Of a stretch of 64,000 bases of DNA, positions 1 through 46,745 are shown in pieces (positions within the stretch are counted from its first letter, which is position 1; each line of letters opens with the position of its first letter). The notes beneath the pieces are model-generated. The model saw only the letters and a program-made list of their open reading frames with translations, did no database searches and was not told where the DNA came from. The stretch is from NCBI GenBank assembly GCA_002441125.1, contig DJVI01000028.1:35377-99376 (forward strand). Direction: 5' to 3'. The position numbers and the translations under genes are program-made. This DNA is from a candidate division WOR-3 bacterium UBA6260. Lineage in GTDB: Bacteria; Hydrothermota; 32-111.

Positions 1-244
1 TTATTATTATTATAGAAACATCAGGGTAAAAATGTTTAAGCTCAGGCAGATACTCTAATCCAGTTCTGTCAGGTAATTTAACATCAAGTAAAATAAGGTC
101 TATCGAATTTTTTTCTAAAATTTGAAACATCTCTTTTCCATTTGACGATTTAAAAACATTGTACCTGTTTTCAAGAAGTATCTCTCCAACAGATTCAAGA
201 ATGAAAGGATCATCGTCAACTATCAAAACATTCTTCATATTCAT
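1..244 (-). CDS. Response regulator receiver-domain protein. The N-terminus is in the window; the gene runs off the window start.
   Basis: The reverse complement of 1-244 translates as MNMKNVLIVDDDPFILESVGEILLENRYNVFKSSNGKEMFQILEKNSIDLILLDVKLPDRTGLEYLPEL... with the receiver DD and phospho-acceptor-like D in LDV. A GGAGG RBS lies 4-10 nt upstream of the ATG at 244/238. The reading frame stays open to position 1. Confidence 0.7.
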   Translation of the reverse strand, partial: MNMKNVLIVDDDPFILESVGEILLENRYNVFKSSNGKEMFQILEKNSIDLILLDVKLPDRTGLEYLPELKHFYPDVSIIII

Positions 245-252
245 AAGACCTC

Positions 253-1311
253 CTATATCGTAGGCAAAGGAAGAACAACTTTTATTTCGGTTCCGTTTTC
301 ATAATCTTTCATCAACAATTTTCCAGAAACATTTTCAATATCGAATTTTATAGAGTTAACAGTCAGAAGGTCAGACCTGCTATTTTCATCATCTTGCTCT
401 GCAAGTCTCTCAATATCTGTTTTAAAATTTGTGTTGAAAATTAAATTTATGTTATCATCGAAAAGAGAAAAACTTATCGATACTTTGTTCCCTTTAACTT
501 TTTCACTTCTGTGAAAAAGAAGAAGCATCAGTTCAAGGAAAATATATTTCAAAAATCCATGTGGTAACTTTACAGGCGGGATCTTTTTGTCATAAGAGTA
601 TTCAATTTCAACATTATGGTTTATAAAATAATCTTTTATTATAGGTAAAAATTTTACAGTTTCATCCTCGATGTTGACAAGTTCCATCCTTTCAGAGATA
701 CCGAGTTTAAGTTCCCTTACAGTTGATACTATAGAAACTATCCTATCAACATTCTGCTCGATCATATCTATCTTTTTATGCAACTCCTTTGGGCAACTCT
801 TATCCAATCTCAACATATCGAGTTGAAGGATTATAGATGTAACAGGGTTATTTATCATATGACTTATACTTGATATCAATTCCCCAGCTACTGAAAGTTT
901 TGAAATTTTCCCAATTTCATGTTGTAAAGAGGACATACTCTCACAGGAAAATATATAATTTCTGATTCCAACCAATTTTTCACTCTTATATTCAAACTCT
1001 CTCTCAAAATCCTCTTCACTTATAAAATCTAAATAGGGAAATTCAAAAAGTTTTTCATACTCGTAAATATCCTCATCTTTTTTTAAAATTACAAGAATAG
1101 GGATCTTCAAATAAAAAAACTTTTTTAAAAGATTTGTATTTTCTAAAATTTTTCCGTTTTCAGATGAAGTTAAAATTATGTCTATTTTCACCTCACTACA
1201 AATCTTATCTATTTGACTGAAATCATCTTCAAATATTAAGTTGTTTTCACCCAATTTTTTAGATTTTAATATATTATCCTGCTGTACATTGAAAAGTATT
1301 ATCTGTTTCAT
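253..1311 (-). CDS. Histidine-kinase-like signalling protein. Degenerate N-terminal receiver-like domain, a HisKA H-box, and a divergent ATP-binding region.
   Basis: The H-box is SISHMINNPVTSI (compare AHEINNPL). The C-terminal region has the length of HATPase_c, but the N box lacks Asn (LELMLLLFHRS) and the G1/G2 Gly motifs are degenerate. The N-terminal 100 aa are receiver-like without the DD pair. It overlaps its neighbour by 4 nt. Confidence 0.6.
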   Translation of the reverse strand: MKQIILFNVQQDNILKSKKLGENNLIFEDDFSQIDKICSEVKIDIILTSSENGKILENTNLLKKFFYLKIPILVILKKDEDIYEYEKLFEFPYLDFISEEDFEREFEYKSEKLVGIRNYIFSCESMSSLQHEIGKISKLSVAGELISSISHMINNPVTSIILQLDMLRLDKSCPKELHKKIDMIEQNVDRIVSIVSTVRELKLGISERMELVNIEDETVKFLPIIKDYFINHNVEIEYSYDKKIPPVKLPHGFLKYIFLELMLLLFHRSEKVKGNKVSISFSLFDDNINLIFNTNFKTDIERLAEQDDENSRSDLLTVNSIKFDIENVSGKLLMKDYENGTEIKVVLPLPTI

Positions 1312-2573
1312 AAAATTCCCTCCTCTATTTCACTTTCAGCTATATACCTTATCATATCTTTTGAAATGTCATTTGTATACAATTTTGGTAAATAGGAATC
1401 GTTACGATCTATAAGTTCAACTATCCTTTTAAAATTTTCTTTCGAAGATTTTTTCTTCCCTTCCATTTTATCTATAAGAGCAATATAGTAGAGAGAATAT
1501 ATATTGTTTGGGTTTTGTGCTAATGTTTTTTGAAAATAGAGTTTCGCTATAGAATAGTTCAATCTGTTAAAGTAATATGTACCAAGAATAAAATCGAAAT
1601 CAGGGTCTTTTATCCCATTCAATTCTAACTGTTTTTCAAGAAATTCTATTTTCATAATATCGTTCTGTCTTGTAAATATAAGAAGCATCAATTTTAAAAT
1701 TTCAACACTCATCAGATCATCTTTTCCCAAAAGTGCCTGTAAAATACCTAAAGATTCATTGTATTTTTTCTCCTTGAAAAAATTTAAAGCATCCTCAAAA
1801 GTATAATCTGATACTAAAAATTCATCACTCTCTGGTTTTTTGAAGTAGAATAACCCTTCAGAACCCACCTGCTCGAACAAACCGGTTGAAAAGATGTTCA
1901 TCTCCTTAAAATCCGATACAATATAACCACCACCTTTCAGCAACCTGTAACTCTCTTTTGAAAAATTTACCAACCTATCTTTCAAAAATATTTTGGCAAA
2001 ATTGTTTACAATAATCATATCAAAAAATTCACTCTTTATAGAGTTATTAAAGGGATTTGAGACTATAAAATTTATTCTGTTTAAAAGGTCTGTTCTTATA
2101 GTGTAATTTTCTATCATATCAATAAAATACTTAAGTTCATCATCGTTTGCTTTTATAAGTTGTTGGTATTCTATCTTCCCATTTTTTATCCTATCAACAA
2201 TAAAAAATGATGGATAAACTGCAAAATAGTTTACATTTTTCCTTTTCTTTAGGTTCTTTAAAATCAGTTCACAATCTATTACGAATGAAAGCAAAGAACT
2301 ACCTATATCTGATGAGAAAATGAGGATGTTCAAATTATCCTTTTCAAGATTTTCAAAAATATTTTTTGTAACTTTTTTGATATCCTCATTTTCAAAAAAG
2401 AGGTTTTGATAATTGTAAAGTGCGAAAAGTATCTTTTCAAAATCTTCTTTTGTCTGTATCTTTCCGAGGTTGTAAAGATCATGGATTTTAACATTCAAAG
2501 ATGTTGTTATGTTTATATTGAAAGAGTTCTGTAAAATATCTATTATCTCAATAACAGTTTTGGGAATCAACAT
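1308..2573 (-). CDS. CheR-like SAM-dependent methyltransferase with C-terminal TPR repeats
   Basis: MTase-fold motifs are LNILIFSSDIGSS (compare RIWSAGCSTGEE), FDMIIVNNFAKIFL (compare FDLIFCRNVLIYF) and YRLLKGGGYIVSDFKE (compare LKPGGYLFLGHSE). The C-terminus has TPR-like repeats (AKLYFQKTLAQNPNNIYSLYYIALI). It overlaps both neighbours. Confidence 0.6.
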   Translation of the reverse strand: MLIPKTVIEIIDILQNSFNINITTSLNVKIHDLYNLGKIQTKEDFEKILFALYNYQNLFFENEDIKKVTKNIFENLEKDNLNILIFSSDIGSSLLSFVIDCELILKNLKKRKNVNYFAVYPSFFIVDRIKNGKIEYQQLIKANDDELKYFIDMIENYTIRTDLLNRINFIVSNPFNNSIKSEFFDMIIVNNFAKIFLKDRLVNFSKESYRLLKGGGYIVSDFKEMNIFSTGLFEQVGSEGLFYFKKPESDEFLVSDYTFEDALNFFKEKKYNESLGILQALLGKDDLMSVEILKLMLLIFTRQNDIMKIEFLEKQLELNGIKDPDFDFILGTYYFNRLNYSIAKLYFQKTLAQNPNNIYSLYYIALIDKMEGKKKSSKENFKRIVELIDRNDSYLPKLYTNDISKDMIRYIAESEIEEGIL

Positions 2574-4672
2574 TTCCCCCTTTTTAAGATATTTTTAACT
2601 CTCAACAAAACCTTCTGAGGATCGATAGGTTTTGTTATATAGTCATCAGCACCTTTTGTAAGTCCCTCTATTTCATTTTCAGAATCAGATTTTGAAGTGA
2701 GAACAACAACAGGGATATTGGATAGATTTTCATCATTTTTAATCCTTTCGAGAAGTTCAAATCCTCCCATCTGGGGCATAGACAAGTCTGTGATAACAAG
2801 ATCAACATTTTTGCTGTTCAATATTTCTAAAGCCTCTTTACCATTTTCAGCTTCTAATGTTAAAAAACCTTCAGATTTAAAAAGTGCACTAATTACTGTT
2901 CTTATCGTTTTTACATCATCAACAACAAGAATACTCTTTCCCTTTTCACCCCTTTCTTTTTTTTCTACACAGTAAGAGATTTCATCCTCAACAAGAAACC
3001 TGTCCACATCAAGAACCCTTTCAATTTCGCTGAAAGTCGTTATACCTTTTTTTACTTTATCGAGTCCATCATTAAAAACAGTTTTATAATTTATACTCTT
3101 GAGATAAGAAACTATCTCATTCAAATTTGTTCCCTTCTCAATAAGTTCTCTCAACTTCTGATCTATTTCTAAAACTCCAAAAATTCCAATTATCCCTGAA
3201 AATCCGGTATAGTTACATTTTTCACATCCATTTTTGTTCTCTTCAAAGATTTCAAAATTCTCATCCACTTTTAAAATCTTTCTTACCTTTTCATCAGGCT
3301 TGATTTTATGTGAACAAAATTTACAAACTTTTCTGACTATCCTCTGTGCTATAACAACAAGTAAAGCGTCAGCTATAAGATATGGCTCAACACCTAAATC
3401 TTTCAACCTTATTAGAGTTGATACTTCACTGTTTGTGTGAAGAGTTGAAAGTAAAAGATGACCTGTGATAGCCCCTTTGAATGCGGTTTGTGCTGTTTCA
3501 GTATCTCTTATTTCACCTAGCAGTATAACATTTGGATCCTGCCTTAACAGAGTTCTTAAAGCTGAAGAGAAAGTAACATTGTTTTTAGGATCTATCTGTG
3601 TCTGATTTATACCTTTAATAGTGTACTCTATGGGGTCCTCAATAGTTGTGATGTTTAAATGTTTATAGTCAAGTTCCTGTAAAATAGAATACAGTGTAGT
3701 TGTTTTCCCACTTCCAGTTGGACCTGTGACAAGAATTATTCCCTGCGATTTTGCCGTGTTTTTCCTGATGATTTTAATATTCTCTTCTGTTAATCCAAGT
3801 TGTTCTAACGAAACTTTTATTTTACTTTTATCAAGAATCCTAATAACTACTTTTTCCCCATCCATTATTGGAATTGTAGAAACCCTTAAAGAGATATCTT
3901 TCTGGGAAACAACTATCTGTATATTTCCATCCTGTGCTTTTCTTGTAATAGTTATATCCATTTTAGCCATAATTTTTATTCTTGAAATTACTCTTTTTTC
4001 TATCTTTTTTGGTAACCTCAAGTGCTCCTGTAAAAATCCATCTATCCTGTATCTAACGATAAGGTTACTTGCCTGTGGTTCAAAATGTATATCTGAAGCG
4101 TTCAACTTTATAGCATCTATAATTATAGAGTTTATAAGTCTAACTATAGGTTTAGCACTTATTTCATCATCCTCTACTACCTCTTCTTCAATATTTTCAT
4201 AATCATCTATTTTAAGTATATTCTCATCAAGTTCATAAGAGAATTTTTCCTGTCCAAAAATTTCAACAAATTTGTTTTCAATGTTTTCTGAAGTAGTTAC
4301 ATAAATGTCTACATCAAGACCTGTTATAAACTGAATATCTTTAATGAGTTCAAGATTAAAAGGATTATCAGAAACTATCTTTAAAGTTTTTTGGGAAAGT
4401 TCAAAAGGAATAAATCTATTTTTCTTAATGTAAGAAGGTATGAAAAGAGATAATAAACCTTCAGTTATTTGAACTTCTTTCAAATCAACATAACCTACCT
4501 TAAAATTCTCCTCAATTAACTTTGCGAGTTTTTCATCTACCTTTAACTTTCCCTCATATAAAAGGTTTGTAAAAAATTTTATCTGATCAAAACTTTTTGA
4601 TTCACTCTCTTTCTGATAGAGTTTAAATATTTCAGGAAAGTTTTTTAAATAATCAATTATTTGTTCTTTCAT
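2567..4672 (-). CDS. GspE/PilB-family type II/IV secretion ATPase, with an N-terminal T2SSE_N domain and a C-terminal response-regulator receiver domain
   Basis: Walker A is LVTGPTGSGKTTTLYSIL. The Asp box is NITTIEDPIEY. Walker B is ILLGEIRDTETA. The His box is GHLLLSTLHTN. The tetracysteine motif is CKFCSHK...CEKCNYTGF. The C-terminal 120 aa read ILVVDDVKTIRTV...VDLVITDLSMPQMGG...VVVLTSKSD...ADDYITKP, a canonical receiver domain. Confidence 0.85.
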   Translation of the reverse strand: MKEQIIDYLKNFPEIFKLYQKESESKSFDQIKFFTNLLYEGKLKVDEKLAKLIEENFKVGYVDLKEVQITEGLLSLFIPSYIKKNRFIPFELSQKTLKIVSDNPFNLELIKDIQFITGLDVDIYVTTSENIENKFVEIFGQEKFSYELDENILKIDDYENIEEEVVEDDEISAKPIVRLINSIIIDAIKLNASDIHFEPQASNLIVRYRIDGFLQEHLRLPKKIEKRVISRIKIMAKMDITITRKAQDGNIQIVVSQKDISLRVSTIPIMDGEKVVIRILDKSKIKVSLEQLGLTEENIKIIRKNTAKSQGIILVTGPTGSGKTTTLYSILQELDYKHLNITTIEDPIEYTIKGINQTQIDPKNNVTFSSALRTLLRQDPNVILLGEIRDTETAQTAFKGAITGHLLLSTLHTNSEVSTLIRLKDLGVEPYLIADALLVVIAQRIVRKVCKFCSHKIKPDEKVRKILKVDENFEIFEENKNGCEKCNYTGFSGIIGIFGVLEIDQKLRELIEKGTNLNEIVSYLKSINYKTVFNDGLDKVKKGITTFSEIERVLDVDRFLVEDEISYCVEKKERGEKGKSILVVDDVKTIRTVISALFKSEGFLTLEAENGKEALEILNSKNVDLVITDLSMPQMGGFELLERIKNDENLSNIPVVVLTSKSDSENEIEGLTKGADDYITKPIDPQKVLLRVKNILKRGKC

Positions 4673-6068
4673 ATTCTCCTATAAAATTTATAAATTTTTC
4701 AACTAAATCTTTTTGAAAATATTTGTCAGATAACTTTTGCAGATTTTCAAAAGCGTTGTTTTTCCCAACACCATCTCTATAATTCTTATTCTCTGTGAGA
4801 AGTATATAAGTATGAACAAGTTTAATTATCTGTGACTCGATTGGGATCTGGGCACCTTGCAATCTTTTTGGGAAACCAGTGCCATCATAATTTTCACTTA
4901 TAGATCCGATTATAGGTTCAAGTTCCTTTAAAAACTCTATATCCTCAATAACATTTTTGAATTTTTCTGAAACCTCTTTTGAACTACTCTTTTTATCTTT
5001 CCCAAAAGATTGTATTATATCAAAAAGAATAGATGAATATTTTATCTTTTCTATAATTTCCTCATCTAATTTCAAAAAAGAAGAAAAATCTTCACAATAT
5101 TTAGATTTTTTCTCTATTAACCTTTTTTGATTGCTATCCGATAAACCTGTAAGAGTAAGCATAGTGTATATAATACCATACCTTGTTGACTTCAACTTTT
5201 TGTTTAATTTTATTTCATAGTATTTGTGTGATAAAACAAAAGATAAAACTTCTGCGATTTCAAGATCCGTATCAAGAAAATCATTTTCCCTTTTTAAGTA
5301 AACAACTCCCAAAATATCATTCTCATAACTCATAACTGATGTCATAGATTTTGAACCAGCAAAAATACAACCAATATTGTTTTTTACCGGTATGAAAAAT
5401 ATTGGTAACTTTGGATCCACTTTTTCACCAACTTTAAATTCACCAACAGAAGGACCAACTATCTCTTTAAAAAAGTCATCCTCTTTTACAAAAAAATATA
5501 TAAACTGTGTTAAAAAAATTTTTGAAAATTCAAGGTAAGATATTTTAAATAGAGTTTCTATATCATCTATCTTAGAAATCTTTTTTTGGAACCGTTTCAA
5601 AAGTATCAACCTCTCAATAACTTTTCTCGATTCATCACTCTCCGGATTTTTTTCCTTCTTGTTAATAATATCTGCAATTATTTTTTTATTCTCAAGCAAA
5701 CTGTTCCTCTTGTTGATAGCACTTTTCAATGCGTTCATAACCTGATTAACATGTAAAGGTTTGGGGATATAATCGAAAGCGCCATATTGCAAAGCTTCAA
5801 TAGAAGTTGAGAGGGAAGCGTATGCAGTCATAACTATTACCTGAATATCACTATCAATCTCCTTAACATTTTTTAAGATATTAAGACCTGAAATGTCTGG
5901 AAGTATTATATCTGTAAATACAATATCTGGTGGATTGTTTGTTATATAATTCATAGCCGAAGTACCATCATAAAAAGCAAGACATTCATAATCTGAAGAA
6001 TAGTTGTTCAAAGCATCCTTTAAAGAGTTTGCAAGATCTTTGTTGTCATCAATAATCAAAACCCTCAT
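4653..6068 (-). CDS. Response-regulator protein with an N-terminal receiver domain and a C-terminal HD-GYP-like domain (GYP half conserved, HD motif degenerate)
   Basis: The receiver domain reads MRVLIIDDNKD...DIVFTDIILPDISG...VIVMTAY...FDYIPKP. The C-terminus carries ENYDGTGFPKRLQGAQIPIESQIIKLVHTY plus a distal AFENLQKLSDKYFQKDLVEKF, matching the HHERxDGSGYPxGLxGExIPLxxRI part of HD-GYP. In the upstream half, LHDIGK is replaced by ILFDI. Start chosen at the ATG (MRV) preceded by GGAGG. The ORF-track start at 6191 adds an unlikely 41-aa leader. Confidence 0.6.
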   Translation of the reverse strand: MRVLIIDDNKDLANSLKDALNNYSSDYECLAFYDGTSAMNYITNNPPDIVFTDIILPDISGLNILKNVKEIDSDIQVIVMTAYASLSTSIEALQYGAFDYIPKPLHVNQVMNALKSAINKRNSLLENKKIIADIINKKEKNPESDESRKVIERLILLKRFQKKISKIDDIETLFKISYLEFSKIFLTQFIYFFVKEDDFFKEIVGPSVGEFKVGEKVDPKLPIFFIPVKNNIGCIFAGSKSMTSVMSYENDILGVVYLKRENDFLDTDLEIAEVLSFVLSHKYYEIKLNKKLKSTRYGIIYTMLTLTGLSDSNQKRLIEKKSKYCEDFSSFLKLDEEIIEKIKYSSILFDIIQSFGKDKKSSSKEVSEKFKNVIEDIEFLKELEPIIGSISENYDGTGFPKRLQGAQIPIESQIIKLVHTYILLTENKNYRDGVGKNNAFENLQKLSDKYFQKDLVEKFINFIGEYERTNN

Positions 6069-6256
6069 CTTCCTTTGCACAATTCCTCCTTTTACACCTA
6101 TTATATACAAAAAAAATGCCAAATATAAGTGTAACAATTTCATTATGTTATGATTATATGACATTCTGGATTTTTTTAAATTGAGAATCATTTACAATTA
6201 AGTATTTGTTTTTATAGACTTATAGTTTGTAAAAAGAATTTGCAAAAGTCATAATT

Positions 6257-6973
6257 TTATGACACATTCAAAGTTTCAGAAACAAGATAACATTTTCTTA
6301 ATACTAAAGATTTCAAAAATGTATTTGTTTCGCAACTTTTTTTAAGTTCATCAATGTTTAAATTCGTTTTCAATATTAATTTTTTATTTTGTGGTAAACT
6401 TTCTAACTTCTTTATTATCAAGAAGTTATTAAAAATATTTAAAGTTTCAATTTGGATGTAACAATTTGTTCCATCCATTTTTTCAAAATCGATATTTTCA
6501 AGATCTTCAATTTTTATCTTTTTTAAACTTTTAAAAATTTTGATTTCTGGGATTTTGGTTAAAAGTAAAATATTCTTTTCCATCCTGCCATCATTCAAAA
6601 AATTTTCAATTATAAATTTATACTCCTCTATCTCTTTAAGTATCCTATCAAGTTGTTCATAATGAAAAGGTTTCTCTATTATATAATTTACATTAAGTTC
6701 TTTTAAAAGATCCTTTATTTTTTGATTCGGACTTGCGGTAACAACAATAAAAGTTAAAAATAGTTCCATCCTTTTTAACTGATTTATTATATTTATACCA
6801 TAGTTCGAACCCAAGAAGATATCTATTATAAGAACATCAAGAGTTTCAATCTCGTTAGACTTTATGAAAAGAGGATGTTTATTCAAAAGGTAAACTTCAT
6901 GTTTTTTTAAAATAAGAATATCTTTTAAAGCGTTTGCAAAAGTTTCATTATCCTCAATTAATCCTATCTTCAT
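6257..6973 (-). CDS. Response regulator receiver protein with an uncharacterised C-terminal domain
   Basis: The sequence MKIGLIEDNETF...LDVLIIDIFLGSNYG...FIVVTAS...NYIIEKP is a receiver domain. An AAGGAG RBS lies 5 nt upstream of the ATG at 6973. The C-terminal ~120 aa have no motif I can assign. Confidence 0.6.
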   Translation of the reverse strand: MKIGLIEDNETFANALKDILILKKHEVYLLNKHPLFIKSNEIETLDVLIIDIFLGSNYGINIINQLKRMELFLTFIVVTASPNQKIKDLLKELNVNYIIEKPFHYEQLDRILKEIEEYKFIIENFLNDGRMEKNILLLTKIPEIKIFKSLKKIKIEDLENIDFEKMDGTNCYIQIETLNIFNNFLIIKKLESLPQNKKLILKTNLNIDELKKSCETNTFLKSLVLRKCYLVSETLNVS

Positions 6974-7090
6974 AATTACTCCTTTTTTTTCTAATTCAGT
7001 TAAACACATTATTTGTGCCAAACTAAATTATTATTTTTTATAACTTAAAGTTAATAAAAAGTTATGAACACATTACAAATGTTTAAAATG

Positions 7091-8031: not shown

Positions 8032-8584
8032 AAAAAATTCTACATTTATAGGTAGAGGATTTTTCGTAAAAGATAAGAATGATGTTGAAAAGTTTATTTC
8101 ATCATTAAGAAATGAGGAGAAGGGATATACACATATAGTTTATGCTTACAGATTAACATCTAACGAATTCTATTATACTGATGACAGAGAGCCTAAAAAT
8201 TGTGCGGGTCTTCCTGTTTACAATGTTATCGAAAAGAATGAACTTTTCTTTTCACTAATCACTGTAATAAGATTTTTTGGCGGGATAAAACTCGGTGCAT
8301 CAGGCCTTGTTAGAGCATATTCAAAATGTGCTATAGAAACTTTAAAAAATTCTATTATAAAGGAACTTGAGAATTTTTATCTTTTAGAGATTTCAGCTGA
8401 CTACAACGAATACAACAAAATTTTACATCTGATAGAAAGGACAAAACATAAAATTTTATTTGAAGATTTCAAAGAAAAGGTTAAAGCAAAAATTTATGTT
8501 AACGATGAAACTTTATCAAAGATAGAAAAGATCTATCCAGACTCTTTTGAAATTTTGGATAAAGATATTCTTCTTCCCTACTGA
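7991..8584 (+). CDS. yigZ: YigZ/IMPACT-family protein (UPF0029)
   Basis: STFIGRGFFVKD...YTHIVYAYRL...DDREPKNCAGLPVYNVI...VIRFFGGIKLGASGLVRAY matches the IMPACT N-domain signature (xVxRYFGGxKLGxGGLxRAY). The TTG start overlaps the upstream transporter by 41 nt. Confidence 0.8.
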   Translation: MKAITESKKIIIVEKNSTFIGRGFFVKDKNDVEKFISSLRNEEKGYTHIVYAYRLTSNEFYYTDDREPKNCAGLPVYNVIEKNELFFSLITVIRFFGGIKLGASGLVRAYSKCAIETLKNSIIKELENFYLLEISADYNEYNKILHLIERTKHKILFEDFKEKVKAKIYVNDETLSKIEKIYPDSFEILDKDILLPY

Positions 8585-9615
8585 TTCATCTTTTTCAAAA
8601 GTGAAAGTATAGATCTCCTTGAAAATGGCTTTTTTAAAAGAGGTATTTTAAACTCTCTGATTATCCTTTTCACTTCAGCTGGTATAGAATAACCTGTTAT
8701 AAAAACGAATTTTATTTCTGGATAACTTTTTCTGACAAGATGGAAAACTTCTGATCCTGATTCGTTCTTAATCCTTATATCACAGAATATTATAGAAATC
8801 CTCTCTTTTCCTTTTTCTATGATTTCGATAGCATCCTTTATATTTTCAGATTGTATTGTTTCTATACCTTCCTCATTCAAAACATCTATTATAGACTCTC
8901 TAACCTCATCTTCATCATCTATAATAAGAACCTTTTCAGATGTTGCTGATGGAGGTAGTTTTAGCATTTTCGAATCATCAGTGTATGGAACAAGCTCAGG
9001 GTCATGTTCATGTAAAACAGCGAACCTTTTTAGTATATCGTTTATCTTGTTCAAACTATTCTTTATCCTCTCTATCAGTTTCTTCTCTTTGTCTGTTAAC
9101 TTGTTTCCCATTCTTTTTTCAAGCATCTCTGTAGATAGAAGTATTACTGAAAGTGGTTGGTTCAATTCGTGATGCATCGTTATGACCGATGCTTTTATTA
9201 TGTTCATCTTAGCAAGTTTTACACTATCCTTCATATCCTCTATCATCTTTAAAATTATTCTTATCCTTGAATCGAGTTGGTTTATATCTATAGGTTTGTA
9301 TATGTAATCAACAGCACCAGCTTCAAGACCTTCAGCAACAGTTGCTGTATCTGTTAGGTGTGAAAGGAAAATTACAGGGATCTCTTTTAACTGTTCATCT
9401 TCCTGTATATCCTTGCAGATATCTATTCCGTTGAATTCATTAAGATCTATATCCAAAATTATTATGTCAGGTAAAAACTCTTTGATCCTTTTTATGCATT
9501 TGTTTGGGTCATTATCTGCATAAACTACATAGCCTAAAGAACTGAGAGATTTGCTAACAAAGGTTGTAACAGTTATACTGTCATCGAGAAGATAAACCCT
9601 AATTTTATTTTTCAT
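8578..9615 (-). CDS. REC-HisKA-REC phosphotransfer protein: two receiver domains flanking a HisKA-like dimerisation/phospho-His domain, with no ATPase domain
   Basis: N-terminal receiver: VYLLDDS...IIILDIDLNEFNG...FLSHLT...VDYIYKP. H-box: ITMHHELNQPLSVI. C-terminal receiver: VLIIDDEDEV...IIFCDIRIKNESG...FVFITGYS...LLKKP. There is no HATPase_c between them. Confidence 0.7.
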   Translation of the reverse strand: MKNKIRVYLLDDSITVTTFVSKSLSSLGYVVYADNDPNKCIKRIKEFLPDIIILDIDLNEFNGIDICKDIQEDEQLKEIPVIFLSHLTDTATVAEGLEAGAVDYIYKPIDINQLDSRIRIILKMIEDMKDSVKLAKMNIIKASVITMHHELNQPLSVILLSTEMLEKRMGNKLTDKEKKLIERIKNSLNKINDILKRFAVLHEHDPELVPYTDDSKMLKLPPSATSEKVLIIDDEDEVRESIIDVLNEEGIETIQSENIKDAIEIIEKGKERISIIFCDIRIKNESGSEVFHLVRKSYPEIKFVFITGYSIPAEVKRIIREFKIPLLKKPFSRRSILSLLKKMNQ

Positions 9616-9965
9616 TTTCCCCCCCTTAATATGTTTATAACTTCATTCAGATTCCTCTTTATCTCCCCTTTTAAATAATTCTTTTCATTTTCGAAATCAA
9701 GGTTTAACTGAACAATTTCAACTTTTGAATTCATAACTTCATTAGCTCCTTTTATTGTATATTTTTTTTCATAAAGCAGTTCTTTGATTTTTTTTACAGT
9801 TTCTATATCCTTTTCAGTATACATCCTTCTTCCATTTACAGAATGTTTCAGAGGTTTTAACTTAGGGAAGACTGTCTCCCAATACCTCAAAACATAACTT
9901 CTAAGACCTGTCATCTGCGAAACTTCCTTTATTGAATAGTATCTTTTTTTATATTCTGTTTTCAT
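9612..9965 (-). CDS. MerR-family HTH transcriptional regulator
   Basis: YSIKEVSQMTGLRSYVLRYWETVF matches the MerR N-terminal HTH (helix-turn-helix, then RYWE). It is 117 aa and overlaps the upstream gene by 4 nt. Confidence 0.75.
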   Translation of the reverse strand: MKTEYKKRYYSIKEVSQMTGLRSYVLRYWETVFPKLKPLKHSVNGRRMYTEKDIETVKKIKELLYEKKYTIKGANEVMNSKVEIVQLNLDFENEKNYLKGEIKRNLNEVINILRGGK

Positions 9966-13676: not shown

Positions 13677-13685
13677 ATTTATAAG

Positions 13686-13771
13686 TGCCGGAGGCCGGAC
13701 TCGAACCGGCACGGGATTGAAGTCCCAGCGGATTTTAAGTCCGCTATGTCTACCAATTCCATCACTCCGGC
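13686..13771 (-). tRNA. tRNA-Leu (anticodon TAA), with a long variable arm
   Basis: Reverse complement: GCCGGAG-TG-ATGGAATTGGTAGACAT-A-GCGGA-CTTAAAA-TCCGC-TGGGACTTCAATCCCGTG-CCGGTTCGAGTCCGG-CCTCCGGC-A. A 7-bp acceptor stem, an anticodon loop with TAA, and a long extra arm. Confidence 0.85.
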
Positions 13772-13774
13772 ATA

Positions 13775-13846
13775 AGGCGGCATCCGGATTTGAACCGGAG
13801 AATAACGGTTTTGCAGACCGTCGCCTTACCGCTTGGCTATACCGCC
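13775..13846 (-). tRNA. tRNA-Cys (anticodon GCA)
   Basis: Reverse complement: GGCGGTATAGCCAAGCGGTAAGGCGACGGTCTGCAAAACCGTTATTCTCCGGTTCAAATCCGGATGCCGCCT. Anticodon loop CTGCAAA, discriminator U. Confidence 0.85.
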
Positions 13847-13859
13847 AAGAAAAAAATGG

Positions 13860-13932
13860 AGCGGGAAACGGGACTTGAACCCGCGACACTCACCTTGGCA
13901 AGGTGACGCTCTACCAACTGAGCTATTCCCGC
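13860..13932 (-). tRNA. tRNA-Gly (anticodon GCC)
   Basis: Reverse complement: GCGGGAATAGCTCAGTTGGTAGAGCGTCACCTTGCCAAGGTGAGTGTCGCGGGTTCAAGTCCCGTTTCCCGCT. Anticodon loop TTGCCAA. Confidence 0.88.
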
Positions 13933-17530: not shown

Positions 17531-17605
17531 TGGCGCCCGAAGGGAATCGAACCCCCAACCTCTTGATCCGTAGTCAAGTGCTCTATCCAATTGAGCTACG
17601 GGCGC
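17531..17605 (-). tRNA. tRNA-Arg (anticodon ACG), with CCA encoded
   Basis: Reverse complement: GCGCCCGTAGCTCAATTGGATAGAGCACTTGACTACGGATCAAGAGGTTGGGGGTTCGATTCCCTTCGGGCGCCA. Confidence 0.85.
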
Positions 17606-20343: not shown

Positions 20344-21936
20344 TCAATTTATCTTTAAAATAGATAGAAAAACACCTTCCCTGTTTTCAAAAATATCAAA
20401 ATTCCCAAAATAGAGAGAATCATCATCGGTAAAATATTCGAATGTTAAAATATCACCTTTTTCAATCTTAACTATTCCATTTCCACTCAAATTTATAAAA
20501 TTCCCTCTTTCTATTGTCCCTTTATAACCAGAGTTTAAGTGAGCAACTTCTCTACCATCAATTTTTACTCTCAAAAACAGATCCGTTTTTTCTTTTTTCG
20601 AAGAGAAAGTTACTTTATAGGAAATGTTATAAAAACCGCTTTTCAAAAAATATAAACTACTGACATCCTTTTCTGAAACTTTAAAATATTCAGAGTTGTT
20701 CTCTAAAACTACTTTTTGAAAATTGAAATTTTTGAAAATATTTTTTTTACTACTATTCTCATTCAAAGTGAAAATTTTCAAGGGAGTGTTTAGATTAACT
20801 TCAAGAAAAGGTAAATTGGGATCAACAAAAATATTTCTTCTAAAAATTATATTGTTTGAACTATCCTCAAATAAAGAGAGATCATTTATTTTATCAAGAT
20901 TTGAAAATCCCCATCTAATATTCTGATTTTTCCCATTGTTGTATCTAAATATCAAAGGTTGATCTAAAAAATTTGTTAAATTTTTTGTGTAAATCTCAGA
21001 AGTATAAAGTTTTACATTTTTCATATCCAACCTGTTATCTTTGAATGTAATAGTGTCCCTTATGCTTGAAACAAATGAAAGAATACCATCACCTGAAAGA
21101 TTTAATTTAACTTTATTACCAACACTTATTTCTTTTCCAACATTCAGATTCCCTGAAACTGTAAAAGAGCCATCTTCTTTTTTGAAAAATATTGAATCCT
21201 TTTCACTTTTGACCTTCATTTCACCATTTATTTGCATAAAAGATGCTGCATATATAGAAGAATCAACAAAATTTTTTGCTATGTATCTATCTTTTGCTAT
21301 TATTCCACCTTCCATCTGCAAAAGATTGTGTATATCATCCTTCTCCTTCAAAATAAGAATATTCTGTTTTTTATTTCCATATATTATGAAACTATCTCCG
21401 TCTGTCTCGTGAAGTAAAGATTTTATTCCCCAGAAATTTGTACCTACATATTTGCCCTGACTTGCTGCAAGATAACCGTTTGAAAGCCATTTGAAACTAT
21501 TTGATATCTCGCATCCAAAAATATCTGAAAATTTTACTAACTTCTCATTTACCAAATTCTCACACATACAAAAAAACATTGCAAAATAATCAATCCCACC
21601 CTGATTTATAAAAGATTTAAAAGTCAGATTCTCCATCTGAACTGTAACATCTTCAGATCTGTTTATTATTACACTTCCATCAAGATCACAATTGGATGGA
21701 GTGTTCATACCAAAAATTACTAACTTTTTTATAGGTTCATTGATAACAATACTATCATATTCTAAATTTGAAATTATGTTGATTTTAATATCTTTTAAAT
21801 CATTTTCTGAAGCATAATCTAAAAGATCCGATATATTTTTAAAACTATCTGAAGGGATATTGTAAATCTTTTGTTCAAAAGCGGATATTTTCAGGAAAGA
21901 TAACAAAAAAACAAAATAAAAAAATTTTCTACCCAT
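20344..21936 (-). CDS. Secreted protein of unknown function
   Basis: N-terminal signal peptide MGRKFFYFVFLLSFLKISAF. 530 aa, rich in N/S/G/K. Motif-free by eye. Confidence 0.4.
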   Translation of the reverse strand: MGRKFFYFVFLLSFLKISAFEQKIYNIPSDSFKNISDLLDYASENDLKDIKINIISNLEYDSIVINEPIKKLVIFGMNTPSNCDLDGSVIINRSEDVTVQMENLTFKSFINQGGIDYFAMFFCMCENLVNEKLVKFSDIFGCEISNSFKWLSNGYLAASQGKYVGTNFWGIKSLLHETDGDSFIIYGNKKQNILILKEKDDIHNLLQMEGGIIAKDRYIAKNFVDSSIYAASFMQINGEMKVKSEKDSIFFKKEDGSFTVSGNLNVGKEISVGNKVKLNLSGDGILSFVSSIRDTITFKDNRLDMKNVKLYTSEIYTKNLTNFLDQPLIFRYNNGKNQNIRWGFSNLDKINDLSLFEDSSNNIIFRRNIFVDPNLPFLEVNLNTPLKIFTLNENSSKKNIFKNFNFQKVVLENNSEYFKVSEKDVSSLYFLKSGFYNISYKVTFSSKKEKTDLFLRVKIDGREVAHLNSGYKGTIERGNFINLSGNGIVKIEKGDILTFEYFTDDDSLYFGNFDIFENREGVFLSILKIN

Positions 21937-22186: not shown

Positions 22187-22195
22187 TCTTTCTAT

Positions 22196-22279
22196 GCCGA
22201 AGTGGTGGAATTGGTAGACACGTCGGTCTCAAAAACCGATGATGGCAACATCATGCCGGTTCGACTCCGGCCTTCGGCA
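22196..22279 (+). tRNA. tRNA-Leu (anticodon CAA), with a long variable arm
   Basis: GCCGAAG-TG-GTGGAATTGGTAGACAC-G-TCGGT-CTCAAAA-ACCGA-TGATGGCAACATCATG-CCGGTTCGACTCCGG-CCTTCGGC-A. Confidence 0.88.
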
Positions 22280-22280
22280 T

Positions 22281-40188: not shown

Positions 40189-41103
40189 CTATTTTAATAT
40201 TTTTTCAAGTTCTAAATCTGAAGGGTATCTCTCTTCAAAAAGTGTAACTACTTCAGATTCATAATTTATTATCCTTCCAAAATCATCCACAAAAAGGGTC
40301 AATTTATCAAAACTTGAAAGTTCTCCATATCCTTTCATAATAATTGTATGATTTAAAGGTGTTTCGATAGCATTTCTTAAACCAATCCCATCGAATCCAC
40401 CAAGCATAATATCTATTCCTTCAACATTTTCCGCAATTATCCTATCATGTTCAAGACCAACGGATGTAAGACCTATTATAATTGAACATCTGTTTTTTTT
40501 CAATATATCAACAACCTCTTTAGTTTTCTCAATCTCTTTTTCAATAATGTAATATTTAGCTACCTCTTCATCCATATTCAATGTAGCATACTCTGAAACT
40601 AACCCAAAAATTCCAATTCTGATACCTTCCTTTTCCATTATAACATATTTTTGTGGTTGTATCTGGGAATCAACTATCTTCAGGTTAGATGATATCAGTT
40701 TTGGATTAAACAAATTAAAGGCTTCATTTAAAAATTTAGGACCAGCGATTATTTCATCAACACCTATATTTACAACATCGTAACCCATATAATTAAAGTA
40801 TAGGGAAGGTTTAGTAAAATCTGTTGAATCTAAATCTACAGATTTGTAAACAAAATTCCCAGAATCAAAGAGGAGAAATATCTGATTCTTTTTGTTAGCT
40901 AGCTCCCTTTCATATTTTACAGCTGTTGAAAGTGAATATATCCCACCAAGAACAGGTGGAAACTCAGGGTTTATAAATGTAGCTTCCCTTCTTTCAAGTA
41001 CATTCCTTATATCGTTCGTGTGTAATATAACTATCTCTTTTGAAAAAAGGGAAATAACAGTAAGAAAAAATGATAAGAAGAAAAAATTTTTTTTCATTTT
41101 CAC
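40189..41103 (-). CDS. Secreted 5'-nucleotidase-like (calcineurin-fold) protein with degenerate metal/catalytic motifs, probably non-catalytic
   Basis: Signal peptide. ILHTNDIRN replaces ILHTNDHHG. FDSGNF replaces LDAGD. GVDEII replaces GNHEFD. GGFDG replaces GGHSH. There is no C-terminal nucleotide-binding domain (304 aa). Confidence 0.55.
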   Translation of the reverse strand: MKMKKNFFFLSFFLTVISLFSKEIVILHTNDIRNVLERREATFINPEFPPVLGGIYSLSTAVKYERELANKKNQIFLLFDSGNFVYKSVDLDSTDFTKPSLYFNYMGYDVVNIGVDEIIAGPKFLNEAFNLFNPKLISSNLKIVDSQIQPQKYVIMEKEGIRIGIFGLVSEYATLNMDEEVAKYYIIEKEIEKTKEVVDILKKNRCSIIIGLTSVGLEHDRIIAENVEGIDIMLGGFDGIGLRNAIETPLNHTIIMKGYGELSSFDKLTLFVDDFGRIINYESEVVTLFEERYPSDLELEKILK

Positions 41104-43428: not shown

Positions 43429-43436
43429 TTTTCCTC

Positions 43437-45866: not shown

Positions 45867-46745
45867 CTAAAAGGAATAGGACAGCTGGATATGGTTTCTT
45901 GAAGGAAGGTTAACAACTGTTGTGTAACCATAATCTATAGATAGATTTTTTATTTTCATTTCAAATCCTATTCCAAGATTTGTTGGATAACTTCTTACTC
46001 CGGAATATATTGTGAACAGATTCTTTATTAACTGGTATTTCAATGAAAAACCGAAAGAAGTAGGTTCACCACTGACTTTTGAAATATCAAAATTTGTGGT
46101 CAAACTCTCATAAGGTAAGTAAGTCAAACCAGCAGAGACCTTTCTTGTTATATAGTATCTTTGGTTACTCATAGCACCAACAATATATGTGTCTGTGAAA
46201 TTCGAAACCGCAAGCCCAATAAACCATCTATCATAAACTTTACCTATCATTCCTAAATCAGCTGTATAGAATATATTGTTGTTAGCATCAACACCTTCCA
46301 TCTTCTGTTCGATAAAAAGAAAGTTCAAATTTGTTCCAAAAAATATTAGATCGTTGAATCCAAGACCGTATGTTAACTGGACAACTCTTTCTGTCTGCAA
46401 TCTCGTGTTAGTACTTAATAAAGAGTCACCGTTTGAATAATCACCGATTACGAAAAGTTCAGAATACTTTAAACCAATGTTACCATAATCTGAAAAGTAT
46501 CCTCCCGATAGAGAAGCAGCATGTATGAACCTGTAAAGATTCTCATAAGAAACTGATACCTGATATTTATCAAGCCCCATTATAGACGCTGGATTTACTG
46601 TGATATTATCTATTCCAGAGATCATACCGGTTGTTGCGTAGGCCATACTTTTTGTCTGAACATTACCGGGTATATATTCGAAAGCAGCATAAGAATAGAT
46701 AAAAGTCAAAAAAGAAATTATGAAAATTAAAATAATCTTCTTCAT
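45867..46745 (-). CDS. Beta-barrel outer-membrane protein, PorP/SprF-like (tentative)
   Basis: Signal peptide. N-terminal GIDNITVNPASIMGLDKYQVSVSYEN resembles the PorP/SprF NPAxxG...YRxQW start. C-terminal ...LSYSF. Sits immediately downstream of a T9SS-CTD cargo gene. Confidence 0.4.
   Translation of the reverse strand: MKKIILIFIISFLTFIYSYAAFEYIPGNVQTKSMAYATTGMISGIDNITVNPASIMGLDKYQVSVSYENLYRFIHAASLSGGYFSDYGNIGLKYSELFVIGDYSNGDSLLSTNTRLQTERVVQLTYGLGFNDLIFFGTNLNFLFIEQKMEGVDANNNIFYTADLGMIGKVYDRWFIGLAVSNFTDTYIVGAMSNQRYYITRKVSAGLTYLPYESLTTNFDISKVSGEPTSFGFSLKYQLIKNLFTIYSGVRSYPTNLGIGFEMKIKNLSIDYGYTTVVNLPSRNHIQLSYSF

What the first reader, a model, noticed from the sequence alone, without database searches (positions are those of the whole stretch)
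2567..4672. Catalytically complete GspE/PilB ATPase with a C-terminal receiver domain
The protein has every GspE hallmark: Walker A (GPTGSGKTTT), Asp box, Walker B (ILLGEIRD), His box (LSTLHTN) and the tetracysteine zinc site. After these comes an extra ~120-aa canonical receiver domain with DD, the phospho-acceptor D in VITDLSMP, T/S and K all present. Secretion/pilus ATPases are normally regulated through their N-terminal domains or by partner proteins. A covalently attached C-terminal receiver implies direct phosphorylation control of the motor. The N-terminal domain is T2SSE_N-like, the fold that binds c-di-GMP in MshE. I could not confirm the c-di-GMP-binding motif here.
Basis: seen in the sequence. 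Interest (0 to 1): 0.65.

Follow-up and report, generated by a model that had tools for sequence, protein, structure and literature searches.

The report
Pilus motor ATPase with fused receiver
This gene encodes an apparently active type IV pilus/type II secretion motor ATPase with a phosphorylatable two-component receiver domain fused to its C-terminus; the layout is widespread in uncultured bacteria but I found no experimental study of it, and it suggests kinases switch the motor directly.

Summary
ORF 2567..4672 (-) encodes a 701-aa protein with three Pfam domains: MshEN (58-143), T2SSE (172-552, 418 bits) and Response_reg (581-692, 107 bits). Every ATPase motif and the receiver's catalytic residues are intact. 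The canonical MshEN c-di-GMP motif is absent.

The fusion is not an assembly artefact and it is not rare. Among the 120 best database hits, 63 divergent clusters carry the same C-terminal receiver. So do 31 of the 148 nearest 50%-identity representatives found with the ATPase core alone. The phospho-acceptor Asp, Lys, Thr/Ser and aromatic switch residue are conserved in 64 of 64 fused proteins.

In two distant lineages the fused gene heads a pilus-type operon with PilC/GspF and pilins, in one case also a secretin and PilT. In the candidate division WOR-3 clade that holds this window, it sits in a conserved, tightly packed signalling operon. No pilus genes were found among the window ORFs scanned.

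Wang et al. 2016 catalogued N-terminal REC-MshEN-T2SSE but not this C-terminal form, and I found no experimental study of either. The most likely mechanism, phospho-control of the motor in cis, is inferred and not shown. Stand-alone receivers acting on PilB (DrdR, PixG) are the known counterparts. Verdict: a real, uncharacterised variant of a known kind, of moderate interest.

The parts
2567..4672 (-). Whole gene: 701-aa PilB/GspE-family ATPase with a C-terminal receiver (MshEN - T2SSE - REC)
   Evidence: ORF found; Pfam and NCBIfam domains; AGGAG ribosome-binding site before the ATG
4502..4672 (-). [quoted passage not shown]
   Evidence: AlphaFold2 secondary structure, pLDDT about 80; motif tests negative
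4244..4501 (-). Residues 58-143: MshEN / T2SSE_N1 alpha-beta domain
   Evidence: Pfam PF05157, 54.5 bits
3017..4159 (-). Residues 172-552: T2SSE ATPase core (N2 plus CTD) with Walker A 317-326, Asp box 345-349, Walker B 383-390 and His box 408-414
   Evidence: Pfam PF00437, 418 bits; motifs located; conserved in 62-64 of 64 fused proteins; Foldseek match to Geobacter metallireducens PilB 5tsh, TM 0.93, rmsd 1.8 A
3215..3325 (-). Residues 450-486: tetracysteine (CxxC...CxxC) zinc-binding element
   Evidence: Located; C453, C483 and C486 are invariant and C450 is Cys in 59 of 64 (His in 5)
2936..3016 (-). Residues 553-579: helix plus flexible tether between the ATPase and the receiver
   Evidence: pLDDT below 50 at residues 567-576; tether length ranges from 19 to 103 aa across the family
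2597..2932 (-). Residues 581-692: receiver (REC) domain with D585, D586, D629 (phospho-acceptor; codon 2786..2788), T659, Y678 and K681
   Evidence: Pfam PF00072, 106.7 bits; (beta-alpha)5 fold in the model; D629 and K681 in 64 of 64, T or S at 659 in 64 of 64, aromatic at 678 in 64 of 64
4653..6191 (-). Upstream gene whose end overlaps the ATPase start by 20 nt: REC + HD-GYP (HD_5) response regulator, a putative c-di-GMP phosphodiesterase
   Evidence: Pfam and NCBIfam; same position in WOR-3 relatives L001-L004
6257..7021 (-). First gene of the same-strand run: REC domain protein (254 aa) with an unassigned C-terminal half
   Evidence: Pfam REC, 40.8 bits; conserved in L001-L004
1308..2573 (-). 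Downstream gene overlapping the ATPase stop by 7 nt: 421-aa protein with a weak SAM-methyltransferase signal and C-terminal TPR repeats
   Evidence: Pfam hits weak; TPR at 265-391 from PDB sequence matches; conserved in L001-L004 only
253..1311 (-). Next gene (4-nt overlap): 352-aa protein with a HisKA (DHp) domain but no detectable HATPase_c domain
   Evidence: Pfam HisKA, 40.3 bits, and no HATPase_c hit; conserved in L001-L004
1..244 (-). Start of the next gene, which runs off the window: receiver domain of an NtrC/AtoC-type sigma-54 activator. In relatives a PAS hybrid histidine kinase follows.
   Evidence: Translation; full gene in L001

Best explanation
The gene encodes a working hexameric PilB/GspE-class assembly ATPase, the motor that drives type IV pilus or type II secretion pseudopilus assembly. 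Its output is gated in cis by aspartate phosphorylation of a flexibly tethered C-terminal receiver domain.

Proposed mechanism:
1. A histidine kinase or phosphorelay phosphorylates D629. The best candidate is the PAS hybrid kinase encoded at the end of the same operon in relatives. The two DHp-only HisKA proteins nearby may act as intermediates or phosphatases.
2. The T659/Y678 switch changes the alpha4-beta5-alpha5 surface of the receiver.
3. The tethered receiver then docks on, or releases, the ATPase ring or its partners (PilC/PilM-type platform proteins), or it pairs with a neighbouring receiver.
4. This turns ATP-driven fibre assembly up or down.

In this WOR-3 organism the motor is one of several receiver-bearing outputs of one signalling operon. 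The others are an HD-GYP c-di-GMP phosphodiesterase and a sigma-54 activator. The structural genes of the machine it drives lie elsewhere in the genome.

Shown: domain content, intact catalytic residues, family-wide conservation, genomic associations.
Inferred: phosphorylation itself, its sign and effect, the kinase, and the identity of the machine.
For: - All three domains score far above their Pfam cut-offs, and all catalytic motifs are intact.
- Across 64 C-terminally fused proteins with 33-91% identity, the ATPase motifs are conserved (62-64 of 64). The receiver's D629, K681, Thr/Ser659 and aromatic 678 are conserved in 64 of 64. That pattern is expected only if both catalysis and phosphorylation are under selection.
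- The fold model gives a PilB-like core (TM 0.93, rmsd 1.8 A to Geobacter metallireducens PilB 5tsh) and a canonical (beta-alpha)5 receiver on a low-confidence tether.
- In two distant fused relatives the gene directly precedes PilC/GspF and N_methyl pilin genes. One of these (L005) also has a prepilin peptidase, a secretin and a PilT-like ATPase; the other is L090. The fused form therefore serves as the motor of real pilus-type machines.
- Fused genes are repeatedly flanked by two-component parts: Hpt, hybrid kinases, REC-GGDEF and REC-HD-GYP.
- Unfused pairs, a CheY-like gene immediately next to a plain PilB-like gene, occur in Omnitrophota, Planctomycetota and Deltaproteobacteria. This supports a functional receiver-to-motor link.
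- Known counterparts acting in trans: the REC-only protein DrdR binds PilB and PilT and raises their ATPase activity (PMC13507683). PixG interacts with PilB1, the interaction is lost in the non-phosphorylatable D326A variant, and the authors conclude that only phosphorylated PixG binds (PMC11181946).
- The genes overlap by 20, 7 and 4 nt, indicating one operon.
- A cultured WOR-3 strain is diderm and carries pili (PMC12285271).
Against: - No pilus or T2SS component was found among the roughly 36 window ORFs scanned, nor within 10 kb in WOR-3 relatives. The machine it powers here is unknown.
- It scores below NCBIfam's equivalog cut-offs for both PilB (512 against 675.65) and GspE (504 against 630.25).
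- The model's pTM of 0.60 and the variable 19-103 aa tether give no defined docking geometry.
- No phosphorylation, ATPase or binding data exist for any member that I could find.
- Conserved receiver residues fit a phosphate-sink or localisation role equally well.
Confidence: 0.6

Rival explanations
1. The receiver does not regulate the ATPase allosterically. It acts instead as a phosphate sink or phosphorelay node for the neighbouring two-component proteins, or as a phosphorylation-dependent targeting or oligomerisation tag that places the motor at a site in the cell.
For: The tether is long and variable (19-103 aa) and the inter-domain geometry is undefined, with pTM 0.60. The island holds four other receiver domains and two DHp-only proteins, which is typical of branched relays. 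In Synechocystis, PixH is proposed to act as a phosphate sink, and PilG/PixG phosphorylation controls localisation (PMC11181946).
Against: A pure sink would not need to be fused to an ATPase and retained with it across several phyla. Nor would it be expected at the head of pilus operons. DrdR shows that a receiver can directly change PilB ATPase activity.
Confidence: 0.2
2. In the WOR-3 lineage the protein has left the pilus or secretion machine and acts as a signalling ATPase. The ATPase is the output or sensor of a regulatory circuit, as proposed for Myxococcus PilB in exopolysaccharide control, and it does not power fibre assembly.
For: The gene is embedded in a seven-gene signalling operon with no structural pilus genes within 10 kb in four WOR-3 genomes. 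It scores below the PilB and GspE equivalog cut-offs. The title and abstract of PMC5544727, listed but not read in full, report a signalling role for Myxococcus PilB.
Against: All residues needed for hydrolysis and zinc binding are retained, and the N1 partner-binding domain is kept. Motor genes are often unlinked from structural genes. Pili are seen on a cultured WOR-3 strain.
Confidence: 0.12
3. The machine is a type II secretion system (the protein is a GspE), so the receiver couples protein secretion, and not pilus extension, to two-component signalling.
For: The sequence is about equally close to GspE and PilB: NCBIfam 504 against 512 bits, and PDB 4pht at 373 against 5zfr at 380 bits. 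The organism appears diderm, with a lipid A acyltransferase gene at 60532..61356.
Against: Best fold matches are to PilB and PilF cores. The one fully resolved fused operon (L005) contains a PilT-like retraction ATPase, which is typical of type IVa pili and not of T2SS. No GspL, GspM or GspC genes were seen in any context examined.
Confidence: 0.2
4. The fusion is an artefact: a frameshift or mis-assembly has joined a PilB gene to a downstream CheY-like gene.
For: Unfused adjacent CheY-like and PilB-like genes exist in other lineages.
Against: The same continuous ORF occurs in independent assemblies at 91, 86, 66 and 54-59% identity. P0001 alone is carried on 13 contigs from NCBI and JGI samples. 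There are 63 C-terminally fused clusters among the top 120 hits. In the unfused pairs found, the receiver gene lies mostly upstream, not downstream.
Confidence: 0.01

Closest known systems
PilB type IVa pilus extension ATPase (Geobacter metallireducens/sulfurreducens PilB, PDB 5TSG/5TSH/5ZFR; Thermus PilF)
   Same: Same ATPase core, with about 44% identity over 385 residues, TM 0.93 and rmsd 1.8 A. Same Walker A, Asp box, Walker B, His box and tetracysteine motifs, and the same N-terminal MshEN/N1 domain.
   Different: Characterised PilB proteins end after the CTD. This protein adds a tether of about 27 aa and a 120-aa receiver. It scores below the TIGR02538 equivalog cut-off and is not next to pilC or pilT in this genome.
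GspE/EpsE type II secretion ATPase (Vibrio, PDB 4PHT, 1P9R, 4KSR)
   Same: Equally similar in sequence (361-373 bits), with the same zinc-binding tetracysteine element and N1 domain.
   Different: No GspL/M/C context and an added receiver domain. It scores below the TIGR02533 cut-off.
REC-MshEN-T2SSE (Geobacter metallireducens Gmet_3473) and MshEN-T2SSE-cNMPbind (Desulfotalea DP2226), catalogued in Wang et al. 2016, Supplementary Table 4
   Same: These are PilB/GspE-type ATPases fused to a signalling input domain. Six N-terminal-REC proteins also appear among this protein's top 120 hits.
   Different: In Gmet_3473 the receiver is N-terminal. The C-terminal-REC order is not in that table, and no entry of this kind there carries an experimental reference.
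Stand-alone receivers acting on PilB in trans: Xanthomonas DrdR; Synechocystis PixG/PixE (PATAN-REC); Pseudomonas PilG/PilH
   Same: A phosphorylatable receiver controls the extension motor. DrdR binds PilB and PilT and raises their ATPase activity. PixG binds PilB1 and the non-phosphorylatable D326A variant does not. Unfused CheY-PilB gene pairs occur in relatives of this protein.
   Different: Those receivers are separate polypeptides, often with an extra adaptor domain (PATAN) or with indirect action. Here the receiver is covalently attached at one per subunit.
MshE / MshEN c-di-GMP receptor ATPases (Vibrio cholerae MshE, PA14_29490)
   Same: The Pfam MshEN domain is present, and the N-terminus has four predicted helices like the MshEN_N bundle.
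   Different: The two 24-residue RLGxx(L/V/I)(L/V/I)xxG... motifs are absent, as in XpsE, which does not bind c-di-GMP. Some other fused-family members (P0065, P0066, P0069, P0075, P0076, P0100) retain the motifs.

Membership tests
PilB/GspE-type T2SS/T4P assembly ATPase (Pfam T2SSE, PF00437) | Profile match above the Pfam gathering score | tested here: met
   418.1 bits against a cut-off of 24.9, covering profile positions 4-370 of 370
PilB/GspE-type T2SS/T4P assembly ATPase (Pfam T2SSE, PF00437) | Walker A, Asp box, Walker B and His box all intact | tested here: met
   GPTGSGKTTT 317-326, EDPIE 345-349, ILLGEIRD 383-390, LSTLHTN 408-414; conserved across the fused family
PilB/GspE-type T2SS/T4P assembly ATPase (Pfam T2SSE, PF00437) | Tetracysteine zinc-binding motif of the extension-ATPase subgroup | tested here: met
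   CKFC 450-453 and CEKC 483-486
PilB/GspE-type T2SS/T4P assembly ATPase (Pfam T2SSE, PF00437) | PilB-like N2 plus CTD fold | tested here: met
   Foldseek match to 5tsh, TM 0.93-0.94, rmsd 1.8 A, on a model with mean pLDDT 83.8
PilB/GspE-type T2SS/T4P assembly ATPase (Pfam T2SSE, PF00437) | Hexamer formation and ATP hydrolysis | not testable with these tools
   Needs biochemistry or multimer modelling
Type IV-A pilus assembly ATPase PilB, equivalog (TIGR02538) | Score at or above the curated equivalog cut-off | tested here: not met
   512.4 bits against a cut-off of 675.65
Type II secretion ATPase GspE, equivalog (TIGR02533) | Score at or above the curated equivalog cut-off | tested here: not met
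   504.2 bits against a cut-off of 630.25
T4P or T2SS gene cluster membership | Linked PilC/GspF platform, pilins, prepilin peptidase or secretin | tested here: not met
   None found among the window ORFs scanned, and no prepilin motif. None within 10 kb in WOR-3 relatives. The feature is met for fused relatives L005 and L090.
Two-component response-regulator receiver (Pfam Response_reg, PF00072) | Profile match above the gathering score | tested here: met
   106.7 bits against a cut-off of 30.2, covering profile positions 1-110 of 111
Two-component response-regulator receiver (Pfam Response_reg, PF00072) | Catalytic set: acidic pair, phospho-acceptor Asp, Thr/Ser, Lys, plus the aromatic switch residue | tested here: met
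   D585, D586, D629, T659, K681 and Y678. D629, K681, T/S659 and aromatic 678 are conserved in 64 of 64; D586 in 63 of 64; D585 is D or E in 64 of 64.
Two-component response-regulator receiver (Pfam Response_reg, PF00072) | (beta-alpha)5 fold | tested here: met
   Five strand-helix units at residues 580-698, pLDDT about 85-90
Two-component response-regulator receiver (Pfam Response_reg, PF00072) | Phosphorylation by a cognate kinase or a small-molecule donor | not testable with these tools
   Needs a phosphotransfer assay. Candidate donors are encoded nearby.
MshEN c-di-GMP receptor domain (Wang et al. 2016) | Pfam MshEN (PF05157) match | tested here: met
   54.5 bits against a cut-off of 23.1, residues 58-143. 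[quoted passage not shown]
MshEN c-di-GMP receptor domain (Wang et al. 2016) | Two tandem 24-residue motifs RLGxx(L/V/I)(L/V/I)xxG(L/V/I)(L/V/I)xxxxLxxxLxxQ separated by about 5 residues | tested here: not met
   No strict or relaxed match. Best tandem score is 10 of 22, and the RLG triplet is replaced by KFF.
MshEN c-di-GMP receptor domain (Wang et al. 2016) | c-di-GMP binding | not testable with these tools
   Needs DRaCALA or ITC. Predicted negative from the motif.

The most novel reading that the evidence does not exclude
C-terminal receiver fusions mark a large, unrecognised class of pilus or secretion motors in uncultured phyla (WOR-3, Omnitrophota, Desulfobacterota, Actinomycetota, Nitrospirota). 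In this class, two-component phosphorylation switches the extension ATPase directly, with no adaptor protein. In at least one clade (P0065, P0069, P0076) the same polypeptide also keeps an intact c-di-GMP-binding MshEN motif, so it would integrate two second-messenger-type inputs. In WOR-3, one phosphorelay would coordinate three outputs from a single operon: the motor, c-di-GMP hydrolysis and sigma-54 transcription.
Probability: 0.35. Interest if true: 0.6.

Novelty: new variant of a known kind. Interest (0 to 1): 0.4.

Why it matters
How cells switch type IV pilus extension on and off is an active question. Known inputs reach PilB through separate proteins (PilG, PixG, DrdR, FimX-PilZ) or through c-di-GMP binding at the N-terminus.

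A natural covalent receiver-motor fusion works as a Rosetta-stone argument that receivers act directly on the extension ATPase. It also offers a simple one-protein system in which to measure how phosphorylation changes a PilB-type hexamer.

The fusion is widespread in poorly studied phyla, so it may be a common mode of pilus or secretion control that model organisms do not show. For this window specifically, it identifies a conserved WOR-3 signalling operon that links a motor ATPase, an HD-GYP phosphodiesterase and a sigma-54 activator.

Tried and rejected
- **Pilus or T2SS partners in the window.** A prepilin-signal regex over all ORFs of 40 aa or more found nothing. Pfam scans of 30 further ORFs between 14 and 64 kb found only housekeeping genes: MreB, PBP2, RodA, PGK, RNase G, RpoN, glycosyltransferases and others.
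- **Promoter and sigma-54 scans around the operon.** Matches were no more frequent than in shuffled sequence: 53 against 43.6 ± 6.8 for sigma-70, and 10 against 12.2 for sigma-54. A weak sigma-54-like site at 6106-6121 is not significant.
- **Organism names.** Cluster look-up returned no names for ten fused proteins.
- **One origin for the fusion?** A core-only neighbour-joining tree rejected a single clean clade. It needs 20 state changes, against about 70 for shuffled labels, so the trait is strongly clustered but not monophyletic at this resolution. The tree is distance-based and sampling was biased towards REC-bearing hits.
- **Island partners outside WOR-3.** tblastn against all 90 fetched loci found the methyltransferase/TPR protein, the HisKA protein and the 254-aa REC protein only in L001-L004.
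- **PilR identity for the NtrC-like neighbour.** NCBIfam gives only generic AtoC/NtrC similarity.
- **Receiver census papers.** The PMC ids I recalled for Galperin's response-regulator papers (PMC1482966, PMC3086570) are not held in the library. I could not check whether those censuses list the architecture.

Full report
**1.

The window carries a 701-codon ORF at 2567..4672 on the minus strand. It starts with ATG, and AGGAG lies five bases upstream. Pfam places three domains on it, all far above their curated cut-offs:
- MshEN, residues 58-143: 54.5 bits (cut-off 23.1).
- T2SSE, residues 172-552: 418.1 bits, E = 3e-125, covering essentially the whole profile.
- Response_reg, residues 581-692: 106.7 bits (cut-off 30.2).

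The receiver has D585/D586, the phospho-acceptor D629 in TDLSMP, T659 and K681. The aromatic switch residue Y678 is also present.

An AlphaFold2 model built on a 52-sequence alignment has mean pLDDT 83.8. It shows:
- four N-terminal helices (residues 1-57) and an alpha/beta N1 domain;
- a disordered linker at 142-172;
- the ATPase core;
- a helix followed by a low-confidence tether (567-576);
- a textbook (beta-alpha)5 receiver at 580-698.

The core superimposes on Geobacter metallireducens PilB (5tsh) with TM 0.93 and rmsd 1.8 A at 44% identity. pTM is only 0.60, so the arrangement of the domains relative to each other is not defined.

**2. The N-terminal domain is not a canonical c-di-GMP receptor.**

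Wang et al. 2016 define c-di-GMP binding by two tandem 24-residue motifs, RLGxx(L/V/I)(L/V/I)xxG(L/V/I)(L/V/I)xxxxLxxxLxxQ (PMC5013675). They also give a relaxed search pattern. Neither pattern matches this protein. The best single window satisfies 5 of 11 constrained positions, with KFF in place of RLG. The best tandem arrangement satisfies 10 of 22. A PA3740 fragment used as positive control scores 11 of 11 on motif I. This resembles XpsE, which has the fold but does not bind.

Six other members of the fused family (P0065, P0066, P0069, P0075, P0076, P0100) score 18-19 of 22. They may still bind c-di-GMP, and P0069 sits next to a REC-GGDEF gene.

**3. The fusion is real, old and common.**

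The nearest relatives (91, 86, 66 and 54-59% identity) have the same architecture. The sources label them candidate division WOR-3 or unclassified MAGs. P0001 alone is carried on 13 contigs from NCBI and JGI samples. This excludes an assembly artefact.

Counts of the architecture:
- Among the best 120 hits to the full protein, 63 have a C-terminal receiver and 6 have an N-terminal one.
- When I removed the receiver and searched 1.84 billion cluster representatives with residues 1-565 only, 31 of the 148 newly retrieved nearest representatives still had a C-terminal receiver. Four had an N-terminal one, 14 were tandem double ATPases and 99 were plain.
- A sample of GTDB species representatives contains true C-terminal fusions in a deltaproteobacterium (L007), an Omnitrophota genome (L008), a Frankiaceae genome (L009) and a Mycobacteriales genome (L011).

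On a neighbour-joining tree of ATPase cores the fused state needs 20 changes, against about 70 when labels are shuffled. It forms pure clades of 19, 9, 8 (the query's WOR-3 clade), 7 and smaller. The fusion is therefore stably inherited within lineages but is not a single clean clade at this resolution.

**4. Both halves are under selection for activity.**

In 64 fused proteins spanning 33-91% identity:
- Walker A Lys, Walker B Glu, the His-box His and three of the four cysteines are invariant. The fourth cysteine position is Cys in 59 and His in 5.
- The receiver's D629, K681 and P682 are invariant.
- Position 659 is Thr in 59 and Ser in 5.
- D586 is present in 63 of 64.
- Position 678 is always aromatic.

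The tether between the domains ranges from 19 to 103 residues. This points to a flexibly tethered domain that docks reversibly, and not to a rigid joint.

**5. Genomic context.**

Here the gene lies in a same-strand run with overlapping stops and starts. In order of transcription:
- REC protein, 6257..7021.
- REC-HD-GYP, 4653..6191; its end overlaps the ATPase start by 20 nt.
- The ATPase-REC gene.
- A 421-aa protein with a weak methyltransferase signal and TPR repeats, 1308..2573; 7-nt overlap.
- A 352-aa protein with HisKA but no detectable HATPase_c, 253..1311; 4-nt overlap.
- The start of an NtrC/AtoC-type REC-sigma-54 activator, 1..244, which runs off the window.

In WOR-3 relatives the same order continues into a PAS-rich hybrid histidine kinase of the BarA/TorS type. 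The order holds even in a genome whose ATPase is only 56% identical (L004). The island-specific partners were found only in this clade.

No PilC/GspF, pilin, prepilin peptidase or secretin was found in the window ORFs scanned. None lies within 10 kb in the relatives.

Elsewhere the picture differs:
- In L005 (39% identity) the fused gene heads an operon with prepilin peptidase, T2SSF, N_methyl pilins, a secretin and a PilT-like ATPase.
- In L090 it precedes T2SSF and a pilin, followed by PAS kinases.
- In L088 and L006 it is flanked by hybrid kinases, Hpt and REC-GGDEF.
- In L087 and L089 it stands alone.
- Six of the 80 species-representative loci have a separate CheY-like gene next to a plain PilB-like gene (within 1.5 kb, same strand; five upstream, one downstream). 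Examples are L048 and L082. These are the unfused form of the same pairing.

**6. What it most likely is and does.**

The best-supported reading is a working PilB/GspE-class assembly motor whose output is gated in cis by phosphorylation of D629.

Shown:
- the domain content and intact catalytic residues;
- family-wide conservation of both catalytic sets;
- use of the fused gene as the motor of pilus-type operons in some lineages;
- persistent association with two-component genes.

Inferred:
- that D629 is phosphorylated;
- by which kinase (the operon's hybrid kinase is the obvious candidate, possibly through the DHp-only proteins);
- that phosphorylation changes ATPase activity, ring assembly or platform binding;
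- the direction of that effect.

Published systems show that stand-alone receivers can do this in trans. DrdR binds PilB and PilT and raises their ATPase activity (PMC13507683). PixG interacts with PilB1, the non-phosphorylatable D326A variant does not, and the authors conclude that only phosphorylated PixG binds (PMC11181946).

Which machine this motor drives in WOR-3 is open. The protein is equidistant from PilB and GspE and falls below both NCBIfam equivalog cut-offs. A cultured WOR-3 strain is diderm and piliated (PMC12285271). The one complete fused operon includes PilT. I therefore lean towards a type IVa-like pilus.

**7. Rivals.**

- The receiver may be a phosphate sink, relay node or targeting tag and not an allosteric switch. 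The long variable tether and the receiver-rich island allow this.
- The WOR-3 protein may have become a signalling ATPase detached from any fibre machine.
- The machine may be a T2SS.
- An artefactual fusion is excluded.

**8. Comparison with what is known, and novelty.**

Supplementary Table 4 of Wang et al. 2016 lists REC-MshEN-T2SSE (Gmet_3473), GAF-MshEN-T2SSE and MshEN-T2SSE-cNMPbind. It does not list MshEN-T2SSE-REC, and it gives no experimental reference for any of these. Automatic JGI annotation already labels some members 'PilB-like protein/CheY-like'.

Four full-text searches found no paper that describes or tests the C-terminal fusion. No PDB chain covers both the ATPase and a receiver. 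The library lacks most subscription journals, and the ids I recalled for the response-regulator census papers were not held. Absence from the literature is therefore provisional.

I rate the finding as a new variant of a known kind. The parts and the logic (a receiver controlling PilB) are established, but the covalent C-terminal arrangement is uncharacterised. Interest is moderate. A specialist would not be astonished, because receivers are fused to many outputs. The family is nonetheless large, conserved and a clean experimental handle on motor regulation.

Noticed in passing
Proteins P0008-P0057 and P0130-P0143: Many of the strongest hits are proteins of about 1000 aa with two complete T2SSE ATPase cores in one polypeptide. 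65 of the 277 proteins fetched have this tandem architecture by my local classification. One related partial hit is labelled Patescibacteria. I did not check whether both halves keep their catalytic motifs or whether this form has been described.
   Followed up: partly
window 253..1311 (-): A 352-aa protein has a HisKA (DHp) domain with the His box SISHMINNP but no detectable HATPase_c domain. Its N-terminal 120 residues resemble a degenerate receiver. It may be a pseudokinase, phosphotransferase or phosphatase. It is conserved next to the ATPase in WOR-3 relatives only.
   Followed up: partly
window 1308..2573 (-): A 421-aa protein is translationally coupled to the ATPase. It has a borderline Methyltransf_11 hit (21.1 bits against a cut-off of 21.2) and clear TPR repeats at 265-391. 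The layout recalls CheR-TPR proteins such as FrzF, but there is no CheR profile hit. Its function is unknown.
   Followed up: partly
window 8578..9615 (-): A 345-aa REC-HisKA-REC protein lacks an ATP-binding kinase domain. It overlaps a MerR-family gene (9612..9965). It lies near the island in the closest relatives (L001-L003) but not in L004. It may be a phosphorelay intermediate.
   Followed up: no
window 4653..6191 (-): The mechanical ORF for the REC-HD-GYP protein is 512 aa, but its receiver starts at residue 42 (MRVLIIDD). Relatives are called at 475-503 aa, so the true start is probably near 6068. A weak sigma-54-like sequence (TGGCAT-N5-TTGTA, 6106-6121) lies just upstream. Such matches are no commoner than chance in this window.
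   Followed up: partly
window 48732..50135 (-) and 1..244 (-): The window encodes sigma-54 (RpoN, all three Pfam domains). The signalling operon ends in an NtrC/AtoC-type sigma-54 activator, so the island probably has a transcriptional output as well.
   Followed up: no
P0065, P0066, P0069, P0075, P0076, P0100; L088: One clade of C-terminal-REC ATPases retains near-canonical tandem MshEN c-di-GMP motifs (18-19 of 22 positions). One member is adjacent to a REC-GGDEF gene. This suggests dual control by c-di-GMP and phosphorylation in those lineages.
   Followed up: partly
P0070, P0072, P0086, P0087, P0090, P0094-P0096, P0103, P0107, P0108: Several REC-bearing PilB-like proteins also carry a double-zinc-ribbon (DZR, PF12773) annotation. 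They are 780-830 aa long and form a further sub-architecture that I did not examine.
   Followed up: no
window 20344..21936, 42268..43461, 55498..56637, 40189..41103, 45867..46745, 50835..51746 (all -): Six sizeable ORFs (292-530 aa) have no Pfam match at E <= 1e-5. I did not investigate them.
   Followed up: no
window 13685..13932 (-), 17532..17605 (-), 22195..22280 (+): There are five tRNA genes, including a tight Leu(taa)-Cys(gca)-Gly(gcc) cluster. Most genes lie on the minus strand and GC skew is negative throughout, consistent with one replichore.
   Followed up: no
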